A stretch of 64,000 nt of DNA from Malacoraja senta (GCA_038087875.1 CM075996.1:64001-128000); one strand, 5' to 3'; shown: positions 32,933 to 37,093, counted from the first letter of the stretch. The notes: generated from the sequence alone by a model not told the origin. Numbers and translations are program-made.

Positions 32933-35598
32933 TTTTTTGAAAGCACAGTTACAACGTAATAATCCTAGTAATAATAAAAACAAGCTATGGTACTCACACA
33001 ATGTAAATATTCTATAATACAATTTCAGACCTGCACAACAGGGTATAAATACTCCAGTTTACATCATTACCACAAGATGAGGATGGATTTGGACTGGCCA
33101 TTGTTTTCCACGGAGTTGTGTCCTGCGACACGGTCTAGGTGAGTACTTGCCCCTCCCTCAGCCGAACAGGCTGGAATTCATTAATAACAGCTCTCAGGCA
33201 AACCTCCCCTGTCTTCATCGTCTCACCCTGATCATGCACCTTTGAGGAAACCAAAGGGCAGCATCTGTTTCCAGTTATTCCAGGAATATGGAAAGAAAGA
33301 ACTCCCAGTGGGAAAACTACATTTCCCCCTTCTTTCCATGGAGTGCATTGGGTGGGGGAGGAGTTTGGGTATTTCCAAACCATCAGCCCAATATGCAAAT
33401 ATTAACAAATCATCCCTCCAGCCCACCCGTTGGAAAGAACCTTCTGACAGAGAGCGTTCCCTAACTTCCCTGGGCCCAACACCATGGGTGCAGAAATAGT
33501 AATAAATAATGTTAGAAATCCCGTGATATCATAGACCTGCTCCCCATCCCTTCCCTACCACCCCCCCCCCCTCCCCTCCCACCTCCCCATTGAGGATCCG
33601 CTCGCAGATCCTCCCTCCCTCCCATTATCAGGACCCCATGCAGCCCTGAAATCTGCAGGAGGAAGCCTGCTTGGTATCTTTCGGAAAGCAAAAGCAGAAA
33701 AAAAGGGACAATAGGTTCTAGGCAAAAAGAATCCCTTAAAACAAAAAAAGATGGGCTTTTCAAAATCAAATCAAGATCTGAAAAATAAAATTCAATGTGC
33801 ACATGCAGACACCAACACAAGATCGGGGTCCAATTGCCTCAATGAAACATCGTTCAGAGATTTCAGCTTGCCTGTATCAATATTCCCTCAAATTGGATAA
33901 AGAAATATATACACTGATCCTGAAATTTGCCCTGCTCTCTCCTTTTCCCCAAACATACTTGGTAGTTCATCCAAGTGGCCATTCTTTCCATTTGAACTGA
34001 GGCTACGAACATCTGCAGTGCAGCACCAACCATAGCACCGCAAAACCAAATTTGGAGGAGAGAAGATCCAGACCCATTTCAAACCCCTCTGCATAATGGC
34101 AGACTTTGGTTATGAGGAGAGCCTGGAGAATGTAGGGTTCTTCAGAGCAGAGAAGGTTATGAGGAGATTTGATAGAGGCACTCAGAACGAAGAGCTTTTT
34201 CCAATGGCAGGAATAATAGGAATGAAATGGGACAAGTTAAAGATGACAGAGCAAACCATTAGTGGGCAGTTGGAAATATTATTTTTTTCCCCACTTCCAT
34301 GCAGCAAGTTGTTGTAATCTGGTACACACTGTCTGAAAAGACAACTGAACCAGTTTTATTAATGAATTGCATAAATACCTGCCATAGGAAACACTTGCAA
34401 GATCATGAAATATGAACTTACAAACGTGTGGGACTAATTGAAAGGCTCTTTCGGAGAGCTTTACACACTGAATAGGTTTCTCCTGTAATATGAGCATTTA
34501 AATTCTTCCACATATCAGCCTGAAGCACTTGGAGATGTATCCAGCTGAGTTCATCCAATTCAATGCCAAACCAAAGGTTGGAATTATAAGGGATCTGTCT
34601 TGGTGATGGTTATCAATGATTATTCCCATTCCTTAGAGAGCTACCCCAATGAGGACGAGGTCCCAAAAACAATTGATCAGTAACCTTCACCAAAACACCA
34701 ATATCGATCTCTGTCACAGGTTCCAAATGGCTGCCAAAAGTGTAGGGATTGAGGCGAGAAGAATGCTGCCATTAAAATTAGGATAATTAAATAAAATATA
34801 TGCAACAAAATAAGCAACAATGTTCCTTAAAAGCTACAACAAATATATATCCCTTACCACAACTGCCAAGATTTCCAACCATTGGACCATGGGGGCAACC
34901 AGCACAGTCCCCATAGCAATGGTAATCTGGTCTAATTCTTGTACAGTTATGGAGTGGAAGAAGCTTAGTCTGATTTGTCCCACTTGTTGGAAAAGAGGGC
35001 ACCCATTTTGAGGAACTGCTCAAAGTTTCTCTTTAAGATCTATGGGCTAGGGATACATGGCCTATTCTAATAAGCCCCAAGGGCAGTTCAGCAGGAGGGG
35101 GAGAACCAACAATTTTTTAACATTATTTCTGCTTTTTCCAATTCCACAAATGACTTCTGGGAGGCAAGCTAGAAAATTGACAGGTTGAGCAATATAATTA
35201 GAGGTGGATCAACAAATTCTAGCCGAAGCTACCTTGAGCCGAGTCCTACATTCATTCAACTCTGGCAAGGTTGACATTTATTGCCCATCCCAATAGAAGT
35301 ATAACTTTAAGTCAACATTTGGTGCGGAGCTGAAGTCACTTAAGCAGCAGACTTCGAGCCCCAAAAGGCAGATTGATGTTAAAAACAAAACTCACACAGA
35401 TTATTTCATGATCACTGAAATAAACTTTATATTTCAGTTTCTCAAAATCAGCATGGTAGGATTTGAGCTCTCAATCTTTCGGTCATTAATCCAAAATCAC
35501 TTTACGTATATATTTTAAAAAGTGTTAAATAAATTAAGGAGTGCTTTGTTCAACTTGTGAAGGTTCTACATGCCTCCCTGCACTTAGCTTCTCAAAGA

Positions 35599-35694
35599 AG
35601 GTACACAAAAATGCTGGAGAAACTCAGCGGGTACAGCAGCATCTATGCAGCGAAGGAGATAGGCAACGTTTCGGGCCGAAACCCTTCTTCAGAC
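35599..35694 (-). mobile_element. Short PLE-terminus-derived insertion with intact minimal hammerhead core
   Basis: Flanked by direct repeat CTCAAAGA (35591-35598 / 35695-35702). Minus strand reads AGGT-CTGAAGA-A-GGGT TTCG GCCC-GAAACGTT-GCCT. Confidence 0.75.
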
Positions 35695-35696
35695 CT
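35661..35696 (-). ncRNA. Putative minimal (type I, PLE-class) hammerhead ribozyme
   Basis: CUGAAGA and GAAA core boxes, 4-bp stem II with UUCG loop, palindromic ACGU in place of stem III, GUU cleavage triplet, stem I AGGU/GCCU. Confidence 0.55.
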
Positions 35697-37093
35697 CAAA
35701 GAGATGTGTGATCTGTTGTTTGCAACTAGATAATGACTCCAACTATTTGCGTCTCCACTTCACCAGATGTCACAGTACAAACCAGGTCTATTCTGGCCTA
35801 ATCCAAAATGCCAAGAATCACAGAGTACCTTGTTACATTTTCCTCGGGGCCAATTGTTCGTCTTGATTCAACAAGTCTTGAATGTCAGTCAAAGAGGCTT
35901 CCTCCTCCATTTCCCACCCCATCTCCAATATTTGTGTGATAACAAAACTTACGAACAAAAAAATCCATATTGCTGTTTAAACATCCCTATAATGTTTCTC
36001 CCAGATTTGCTTAAAGCACTTGGGAGATCCACCTTCAGTCCTTGGGTTTACCAGGAAGGGTTGCCAAACCCAAGATAAGGCCTCCTGCAAGTCTTAAATG
36101 GCCAAGACTCCATCACAGGAGCGGGTTCTCACGGAGGCGAAACAAAAAACGGCTAAGCAATAATCATCCGTTTACACCTAGCTAAAATGGGCAGTCAAAC
36201 CTCCTCCACTCTCCACAAATTAACCAGAACAGACGGCATTGAATCTACAGGAAGGGTCTTGCTCTGTGCATTTTACACTGTGGATTCTGCTACACCTCGG
36301 AGACAAAATAAAGAGGCAGAAAGTCTCTTAAAACCTATGTACAGGTTATCCACCCCACCAGGTCGCCATGGCGAGCATACACAACACACACACACACACA
36401 ATGTTAGCAATGGTGAACACTTTTCATGCCCCCTGGTTAAACCAAGCGGCAAGCCTGCGAGAGTTAAGCAGGTTAAGAAAACGAACTAAAACGACATTTA
36501 CTCGCATGTTGAAGCAATAAAGCAGGCTTGAAGGGCTTCCCGGGTTGGAGCGTGGAGAGTTGGCGGTCCCTCAATCGGGCGGGGTGGACATGTTGAGCGG
36601 GTGACGGGGCAGAGAGGCTTCAGTTCCAGTCACCTCGCCCCCACGATCATCGACGCCTCGAGCACGATAGAAACGGTCTCTTTTTATTTTTTTTGTTTCA
36701 TATTTGGAAAGCTTGTCTTTGTTTGTTAATTTTGCCAGAGACTTTATAGCGGGGAGGGGGGAAAAGAAGGGAGACCTTTGGCCGAACGTCTTCACATAAC
36801 CGTCGCTTGAAGCGGGTGAGACGGACGAACATGGCGCCGGCCCGGCCTCGTCCCTCTTGTCCATGGGCGGGAAAAACTTCTGCTCCATCCAGACACGCGG
36901 GGGGAATATTCGCGAGCCGCTCGTCGGAACCGTACGTCCAGATTGTTATTGTGTATGTGTGTTTTGTTATTGTTGTTGTTGTTGTTTAGTTGAAGTCGCG
37001 TCTTGTGGTGTTTCTGATTTATTTTTTCGTTGAATGCTTCAGGTGCAAAATAAAATGGCGGGCGGGGATGGATGGATGGTGATGGGGGTTGGT

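What the first reader, a model, noticed from the sequence alone, without database searches (positions are those of the whole stretch)
35591..35702. Intact, sense-oriented hammerhead core 1.4 kb downstream of the sox10 stop, possibly inside its 3'UTR
Seen: a 96-bp insertion with 8-bp TSD CTCAAAGA. On the sox10 strand it reads AGGU-CUGAAGA-A-GGGUUUCGGCCC-GAAACGUU-GCCU, so core, stem II and a 4-bp stem I are all present, and part of stem I comes from the flanking TSD. It is the only clear TE between the stop and the candidate distal polyA site. Known: a 3'UTR hammerhead down-regulates rodent Clec2 mRNAs. Inference: it could cleave or destabilise long sox10 transcripts. Stem III is only ACGU, so activity would need pairing with a second copy.
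Basis: partly seen in the sequence, partly recalled or inferred. Interest (0 to 1): 0.7.

Follow-up and report, generated by a model that had tools for sequence, protein, structure and literature searches.

The report
Young Penelope hammerhead fragment behind sox10
A 96-base tail piece of a very common jumping element, carrying the letters of a minimal self-cutting RNA, landed recently behind a skate's sox10 gene, probably inside its messenger RNA, but two related species lack it and it is most likely an inert passenger rather than a regulator.

Summary
There is a 96-bp insertion (35599-35694) with an 8-bp target duplication, 1400 bp behind the sox10 stop. On the sox10 strand it spells a minimal type I hammerhead, and two of its four helix I pairs come from the target site. 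It is the 3' end of a Neptune-type Penelope-like retroelement: one of 31 family loci in this window, with tens of thousands of matching contigs per DNA run. Two relatives about 3.5-3.7% diverged have the empty site, so the insertion is young and not conserved. In one relative a spliced RNA-like run covers the orthologous site, so it probably lies in a long 3'UTR. Cleavage is unlikely. Helix III has no loop and cannot form in one molecule. The only same-strand copy in the pre-mRNA is dead. Folding models put the active dimer 3-30 kcal/mol above two monomers. Published minimal Penelope hammerheads do not cleave as monomers and cleave poorly as dimers. The Clec2 ribozyme is a different, conserved type III motif. 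The scan earlier reached a like verdict on an intronic copy in a ray genome. Side find: a candidate HDV-like ribozyme heading a 160-bp retroposed element at 26645-26807.

The parts
35591..35598 (.). Target-site duplication, copy on the 3' side of the element
   Evidence: Sequence; single copy at the empty site in X1 and X20
35695..35702 (.). Target-site duplication, copy on the 5' side of the element; supplies the two outer 5' bases of helix I (35696, 35695)
35599..35694 (-). 96-bp 3'-terminal (pseudo-LTR) fragment of a Penelope-like element, without the about 30-nt tail that longer copies carry
   Evidence: 89.8% to the copy at 17010-17107 and 77% to the tail of the RT/GIY-YIG relic; longer copies; loose ends
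35686..35696 (-). Helix I 5' arm (35696-35693) and core CUGAAGA (35692-35686)
35673..35685 (-). Extra A between positions 9 and 10.1 (35685) and helix II, 4 bp with UUCG loop
   Evidence: the extra nucleotide is a listed feature of minimal Penelope hammerheads (PMC4209133)
35661..35672 (-). GAA, palindromic ACGU with no loop (helix III can form only between two copies), U17 at 35665 (predicted cut between 35665 and 35664, GUU triplet), helix I 3' arm GCCU
37094..37799 (-). sox10 last coding exon with TAA stop at 37096-37094
   Evidence: splice joint at 37799 in X1 and X13
31251..37093 (-). Probable long sox10 3'UTR (strand and continuity inferred)
   Evidence: RNA-like contigs of relative A cover 31251-31615, 31670-33521 and 33629-37055; AATAAA at 37023, 36688, 35282, 34360, 32932, 32279
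27357..28760 (+). Broken Neptune-type Penelope-like element (end of RT, C-x4-C-x2-C linker, GIY-YIG) ending in the same repeat family at 28634-28760; its own core is mutated (CGGAAGA)
   Evidence: (GIY-YIG E 0.0022, below the curated cut-off); clade feature from PMC8557442
46471..46673 (.). Inverted pair of family copies in sox10 intron 1; the same-strand copy (46471-46560) has a dead core (GGGAAGA, ACGA)

Best explanation
This is a young insertion, absent in two related species, of the last 96 bases of a Penelope-like retroelement, and it is likely carried along in a long sox10 3'UTR as an inert passenger whose minimal hammerhead is predicted not to cut. Shown: the family identity, the target duplication, the empty site in two relatives, the intact core letters and the loopless helix III. 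Inferred: insertion by the family's reverse transcriptase and GIY-YIG endonuclease with 5' truncation at the start of the core; chance completion of helix I by the target site; inclusion in the mRNA of this species; no cleavage, because the motif needs a second copy and neither a cis partner nor a stable trans dimer is available.
For: Family: 31 loci in 64 kb, one of them at the end of an RT plus GIY-YIG relic. Laid at 88% likeness: 34,995 of 27.2 million records in X19 and 49,584 of 27.7 million in X20, with summed depth 1.7-2.1 million in the two element bins against about 30 beside them (not a copy number). Age: empty site in 2 of 2 relatives whose contigs bridge the site, 3.7% and 3.5% diverged. 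Helix I: the 5 other in-window copies that keep the family's GU arm have only 2 pairs, and a random flank completes pairs 3 and 4 at 11-12.5% of sites. Fold: helices I and II with an open core have probability 1e-5 to 9e-4 in 5 of 6 windows (71-501 nt) and 0.15 only in the bare 48-nt window. The active homodimer lies 3.2-20.2 kcal/mol above two monomers at 37 C and 4.8-30.3 at 10 C. Literature: a single minimal hammerhead gave no detectable cleavage and dimers or trimers gave low cleavage (PMC4209133); 1 of 9 Xenopus dimer elements cleaved (bioRxiv 10.64898/2026.07.22.740005); loop 1-loop 2 contacts are needed at cellular magnesium (PMC6155905).
Against: This copy is the only one of 31 loci with both an intact core and a helix I of 3 bp or more (2 of 14 have an intact core). 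It is in sense orientation, in a 10-kb stretch almost free of in-window repeats. X19, the own species, shows no empty-site contig, though that run may be the source of the window. No RNA of this species was laid. The folding energies ignore tertiary contacts, magnesium and chaperones, and the authors of PMC4209133 suggest host factors may raise activity in vivo. A preprint reports that exon-overlapping Xenopus retrozymes tend to sit in 3'UTRs.
Confidence: 0.76

Rival explanations
1. The insertion is outside the main sox10 mRNA of this species, because most transcripts end at an upstream signal (36688 or 37023) and the RNA cover seen in the relative comes from a minor isoform or a transcript of the other strand.
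For: AATAAA at 37023 and 36688, the latter with 62% U/G downstream. Contigs have no strand, and the coding contig (ends 37064) and the UTR contig (starts 37055) of X1 abut but are separate records. No RNA of the own species was laid.
Against: X1 depth is 10.6 on the coding contig and 15 on the contig across the site, with 0 in intron bins 37883-38845 and at 30500-31141. Cover starts at the stop and runs on to 31251 with breaks at a G-run that also breaks both DNA runs and at 31615-31670. Contig depth is a poor measure of level.
Confidence: 0.1
2. The copy affects sox10 mRNA without catalysis: it base-pairs with antisense copies of the family in other RNAs or in intron 1, or is hit by small RNAs against the family, giving mild editing, retention or decay.
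For: Predicted duplex of -104.7 kcal/mol with the inverted intron 1 copy and -102.6 with another antisense copy; exact shared words of 26-28 nt with other copies. X1 laid 940 of 188,748 contigs, with depth about 10,000 in the element bins against 15 beside them, so family sequence is common in RNA. Penelope copies yield antisense small RNAs in a rotifer (PMC3846280).
Against: No editing, small-RNA or expression data were examined. The element is only 96 nt. The intron 1 copy lies 11 kb upstream and would often be spliced out first (inference). The same holds for any of the many genic copies, so it is not specific.
Confidence: 0.1
3. One reading: the hammerhead cuts sox10 mRNA at 35665, as a dimer of two sox10 transcripts or with protein help, and removes the poly(A) tail.
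For: Core, helix II and triplet are intact, and the flank gives a 4-bp helix I that the parent family lacks. Sense orientation; probable 3'UTR position. Precedent: the Clec2d ribozyme lowered a reporter by 80% (review PMC2950038). Dimers of minimal hammerheads show some cleavage in vitro.
Against: Loopless helix III; dead cis partner; predicted share in the active dimer 1e-11 or less at 1 nM in all 12 settings. For sox10 RNA to be cut, the partner needs a 5' arm that pairs with GCCU, and the family's native arm gives 2 pairs. Not conserved. GUU is not among the best triplets, GUC and AUC (PMC9217987; that paper also had an active GUU ribozyme).
Confidence: 0.04

Closest known systems
Minimal type I hammerheads in pseudo-LTRs of metazoan Penelope-like elements (Cervera and de la Pena 2014, PMC4209133)
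   Same: Type I order, conserved core, extra base between positions 9 and 10.1, G10.1-C11.1, palindromic 15.2-16.2 with no loop 3, short helix I, mostly single truncated copies, tied to an RT plus GIY-YIG element.
   Different: Helix II is 4 bp, not the 7-8 bp of the Schistosoma family. The native helix I of this skate family is 2 bp in the window's copies, and this copy reaches 4 bp only through the target site. Cartilaginous fish are not named in the parts read.
Non-LTR retrozymes of animals (PMC7229834; bioRxiv 10.64898/2026.07.22.740005)
   Same: Short non-coding units with a type I hammerhead, related to Penelope pseudo-LTRs; monomers scattered; exon overlaps tend to be in 3'UTRs. Contigs that go back 97 bases in X13, X19 and X20 hint at tandem units elsewhere in these genomes.
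   Different: This copy is a single unit with a target duplication, not a tandem array, and it lacks the canonical helix sizes and loop contacts.
Clec2 discontinuous hammerhead in mammalian 3'UTRs (Martick et al. 2008, seen only through reviews PMC2950038, PMC6155905, PMC6765202)
   Same: Hammerhead core in sense orientation between stop and poly(A) signal.
   Different: Clec2 is type III, split by 150-1500 nt, works within one transcript, cleaves in vitro, lowers a reporter and is conserved across several mammals. This motif is type I, loopless in helix III, needs a second copy, and is absent in close relatives.

Membership tests
Minimal hammerhead of Penelope-like elements | Type I core CUGANGA ... 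GAAA, NUH, with helix II closed by G10.1-C11.1 | tested here: met
Minimal hammerhead of Penelope-like elements | [quoted passage not shown] | tested here: met
   A at 35685; feature from PMC4209133
Minimal hammerhead of Penelope-like elements | Palindromic 15.1-16.1 stretch with no or tiny loop 3 | tested here: met
   ACGU at 35669-35666
Minimal hammerhead of Penelope-like elements | Sequence belongs to the terminal repeat of an RT plus GIY-YIG element | tested here: met
   77% over 93 bp to 28634-28721, which follows the GIY-YIG frame ending at 28448; the Pfam match alone is below its cut-off
Minimal hammerhead of Penelope-like elements | Cleaves weakly and only as a dimer | not testable with these tools
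   Only folding models
Neptune/Nematis clade of Penelope-like elements | CX2-5CxxC motif upstream of a C-terminal GIY-YIG | tested here: met
   C-x4-C-x2-C in the frame 28035-28448; feature from PMC8557442. No tree was built, so Neptune and Nematis are not told apart
Non-LTR retrozyme | Head-to-tail tandem units, each with a hammerhead | tested here: not met
   Single unit between target duplications
Non-LTR retrozyme | Canonical helix I (6 bp) with loop 1-loop 2 contacts | tested here: not met
   Helix I 4 bp, no stable extension in folding
Clec2-type domesticated 3'UTR hammerhead | Lies in the 3'UTR in sense orientation | tested here: inconclusive
   Orthologous empty site is covered by RNA-like contigs of a relative; no strand, no own-species RNA
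Clec2-type domesticated 3'UTR hammerhead | All three helices can form within one transcript | tested here: not met
   Loopless helix III; intron 1 same-strand copy dead
Clec2-type domesticated 3'UTR hammerhead | Conserved at the orthologous site in related species | tested here: not met
   Empty site in X1 and X20; X13 does not cover the site
Clec2-type domesticated 3'UTR hammerhead | Lowers reporter expression in a core-dependent way | not testable with these tools
   Needs an experiment

The most novel reading that the evidence does not exclude
A new ribozyme switch caught at birth: the target site gave a Penelope fragment the two helix I pairs its family lacks, so that two sox10 transcripts meeting at the transcription site form a double hammerhead and cut each other, a dose-dependent brake on a neural-crest gene in one skate lineage.
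Probability: 0.03. Interest if true: 0.75.

Novelty: new member of a known kind. Interest (0 to 1): 0.15.

Why it matters
If inert, it matters little: it is one dated copy of a known, very abundant class, useful as a presence/absence marker among skates. It does give a clean natural pair, a filled and an empty allele of the same UTR in species about 3.5% apart, for asking whether minimal Penelope hammerheads ever cut host mRNA in vivo. PMC4209133 states that in vivo evidence was absent. If it did cut, it would show a transposon ribozyme gaining control of a developmental gene in a single step.

Tried and rejected
No whole genome is held for this window, so no genome-wide count of copies or of intact cores was possible. 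Rfam gave no hammerhead family up to E 1; two of its miRNA hits at 17034-17156 and one at 46494-46614 are inverted pairs of this same repeat. The look-up of sequencing runs: no RNA holder listed on record; 18 of 24 runs were guessed RNA and 4 of 24 runs were laid. X13 (organism C) has no unique cover at 33710-36919 while exons and 31155-33543 are covered; a filter can remove records, so this says nothing on the insertion or the UTR in C. X1 stops at 31251 and X13 at 31155 where DNA goes on: a weak hint only of a 3' end near 31.2 kb, and it lies beyond the AATAAA at 32932. Summed depth over the element divided by flank depth is about 4e5, but the tool warns this is no copy number, so it is not used as one. 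Six short recalled RPB6 motifs found no POLR2F exon in the window, so synteny was not confirmed; sox10 rests. The Atlas search on exon 3 did not separate Sox9 from Sox10. My first core count missed the copy at 28634 and mis-anchored 21101; one search replaces it. The 181-nt region folds no better than shuffles (z 0.79). Lunse et al. on dimeric Penelope hammerheads is not held. Searches skate+Penelope+hammerhead (2 unrelated papers) and sox10+skate+3 UTR (none) found nothing on this locus in the held library. Rejected: chance motif (family sequence), assembly artefact (X19 contigs enter the element from both flanks with 0 other letters), conserved regulatory element (empty in two relatives).

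Full report
Observation. The window has CTCAAAGA at 35591-35598 and 35695-35702 with 96 bp between, and the sox10 stop TAA at 37096-37094 lies 1400 bp from the insertion. The minus strand spells a type I hammerhead: arm AGGU (35696-35693), CUGAAGA, an extra A, a 4-bp helix II with UUCG loop, GAA, ACGU, U17 at 35665 and arm GCCU. The gene is sox10: the exon 3 peptide is 98% identical to a protein named SOX-10 from Rhinoraja longicauda and 56% to Amblyraja SOX-9, so the organism is inferred to be a skate. The claim that this is the only clear transposon before the AATAAA at 32932 holds for young copies. An old fragment lies at 34135-34200 and a LINE-like one at about 31930-32500.

What it is. 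The 96 bp belong to a family with 31 loci in the 64-kb window, 20 on the minus and 11 on the plus strand. One locus (28634-28760) follows a broken frame with the end of a reverse transcriptase, a C-x4-C-x2-C linker and a GIY-YIG domain. Pfam gives GIY-YIG E 0.0022, below its cut-off; the Atlas gives GIY-YIG clusters at 0.96-0.97. That linker marks the Neptune and Nematis clades of Penelope-like elements, whose insertions are 5'-truncated, often have an inverted copy at the 5' end and carry an optional 30-40 bp tail (PMC8557442). The window shows inverted pairs at 9656-9817, 14020-14234, 16981-17175, 46471-46673 and 60985-61142, and copies with and without a tail. Two other copies have clear duplications of 17 and 13 bp. 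Target duplications of 8-10 bp are reported for Penelope insertions in a rotifer (PMC3846280). The motif has the features listed for minimal Penelope hammerheads: the extra base between 9 and 10.1, G10.1-C11.1 and a palindrome in place of helix III (PMC4209133).

Abundance. At 88% likeness 34,995 of 27.2 million records of X19 (88% of the run read) and 49,584 of 27.7 million of X20 (91% read) were laid on 30500-40100. Summed depth is 1.7-2.1 million in the two element bins and about 30 in unique bins. This is not a copy number, but it shows a very large family. RNA-like run X1 laid 940 of 188,748 records with the same peak.

Age. I laid 4 of the 24 listed runs. X1 (organism A) and X20 (organism E) each have a contig that joins 35590 to 35695, the empty site with one copy of the 8 bp. 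Their contigs differ from the window by 3.7% and 3.5%. X19 (organism D, 0.98 of the words) enters the element from both flanks with no other letters and shows no empty-site contig; it may be the source of the window. X13 (organism C) does not cover the site. So 2 of 2 informative relatives lack the insertion. It is young and is not a conserved element.

Is it in the mRNA? X1 is only guessed to be RNA, but it has the exon 2-exon 3 joint (37799 to 39684), depth 0 at 37883-38845 in the intron and depth 0 at 30500-31141. Its contigs cover 37064-37799, 33629-37055 across the site, 31670-33521 and 31251-31615. The break near 33.55 kb is at a G-run that also breaks both DNA runs. This favours a 3'UTR of about 6 kb that includes the site. 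Limits: this is a relative without the insertion, contigs carry no strand, and the coding and UTR contigs abut without one record bridging them. Two AATAAA lie upstream of the site.

Can it cut? ACGU has no loop, so helix III forms only between two copies. The one same-strand copy in the pre-mRNA (intron 1, 46471-46560) has lost C3, U4 and U16.1. The only other intact core (60985-61110) lies about 11 kb upstream of the first coding exon and has no helix I of its own. For sox10 RNA to be cut, the partner must bring a 5' arm that pairs with GCCU; the five other copies that keep the family's GU arm make only 2 pairs, so in practice the partner would be another sox10 RNA. In ViennaRNA models, helices I and II with an open core have probability 0.15 in a bare 48-nt piece and 1e-5 to 9e-4 in five longer pieces. 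The active homodimer lies 3.2-20.2 kcal/mol above two monomers at 37 C and 4.8-30.3 at 10 C, giving a predicted share of 1e-11 or less at 1 nM. These models ignore tertiary contacts, magnesium and proteins. Published tests agree: a single minimal motif gave no detectable cleavage and dimers or trimers low cleavage; 1 of 9 Xenopus dimer elements cleaved; a review calls rates very low even as dimers (PMC6765202); loop 1-loop 2 contacts are needed at cellular magnesium (PMC6155905).

Against my reading. This copy is the only one of 31 with an intact core and a helix I of 3 bp or more; 2 of the 14 loci with the hammerhead region have an intact core. It is in sense orientation, and 30-40 kb is nearly free of in-window repeats. 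Youth explains the intact core, and a random flank completes the helix at 11-12.5% of sites. With a family this large many such copies are expected, so selection need not be invoked. Cleavage with host help cannot be excluded from sequence.

Rivals. A non-catalytic effect is physically easier than cleavage: the copy forms predicted duplexes of about -103 to -105 kcal/mol with antisense copies and shares exact words of 26-28 nt. I have no data that this happens (0.10). The main mRNA may end upstream in this species (0.10). Cleavage as proposed gets 0.04.

Comparison. The Clec2 ribozyme is type III, discontinuous, found in several mammals, and lowered a reporter by 80%. It shares only the position in a 3'UTR. 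The present motif is a member of the minimal Penelope hammerhead class on all four features tested. It fails the tandem and loop-contact tests for a retrozyme and the cis-folding and conservation tests for a Clec2-type element.

What I saw of each paper. PMC4209133: parts 1 and 2 of 4 (abstract, results, discussion, start of methods); supplements not read, and they may list cartilaginous fish. bioRxiv 10.64898/2026.07.22.740005: abstract, results part 1 of 2 and passages; its supplements, including the 3'UTR table, are closed. PMC6155905: passages and one section. PMC6765202, PMC2950038, PMC8557442, PMC3846280, PMC9217987, PMC7229834: passages only. Lunse et al. and Martick et al.: not read, seen only as cited in reviews. 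Searches found no paper on this locus in the held library.

Verdict. Observation confirmed, interpretation partly supported. New member of a known kind, interest 0.15. The candidate HDV-like element at 26645-26807, listed under things noticed, may deserve its own look.

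Noticed in passing
window 26645-26807 (-): Candidate HDV-like ribozyme at the very 5' end of a roughly 160-bp element that ends in (AAG)n and is flanked by an 11-12 bp duplication (26818-26807 and 26644-26633). Rfam CPEB3 hit 27.6 bits, gathering 35, E 0.0037. P1 6 bp, P3 3 bp, P2 7 bp all pair, a CCAA joiner precedes P2, and there is no P4; 0 of 200,000 random flank pairs met the same rule, which was set after seeing the sequence. Single copy in the window. It resembles ribozyme-headed non-autonomous retroposons (review PMC6765202); one paper search and one scan look-up found nothing on it in sharks or skates.
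   Followed up: partly
window 39684 and 39696, sox10 exon 2 donor: Two in-frame splice donors 12 nt apart: X1 joins 37799 to 39684 and X13 joins 37799 to 39696.
   Followed up: no
window 9656-9771, 14138-14234, 16981-17109, 21101-21213, 35599-35694, 60985-61110, 62620-62736: At least 7 family copies begin within about 4 bases of the hammerhead core, where the family reads as a short palindrome that also looks like a 3' splice site. In Drosophila Penelope an intron end maps to helix I. The inverted copy at 17111 starts at the predicted cleavage position. Unexplained.
   Followed up: no
element bins, joint 35694 to 35598: Contigs that go back 97 bases occur in X13, X19 and X20, a hint of head-to-tail arrays of the unit elsewhere in these genomes.
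   Followed up: no
window 30000-40000: In-window repeat cover is 0-5% per 2 kb around the sox10 last exons and 3' region, against 11-63% in 1-22000.
   Followed up: no
window 31930-32500 and 34135-34200: Old repeat fragments inside the probable long UTR; organism C skips 378 bases at 32037-32416.
   Followed up: partly
window 55261-56230 (-): A second decayed frame that resembles the Penelope endonuclease region by eye; no Pfam match.
   Followed up: no
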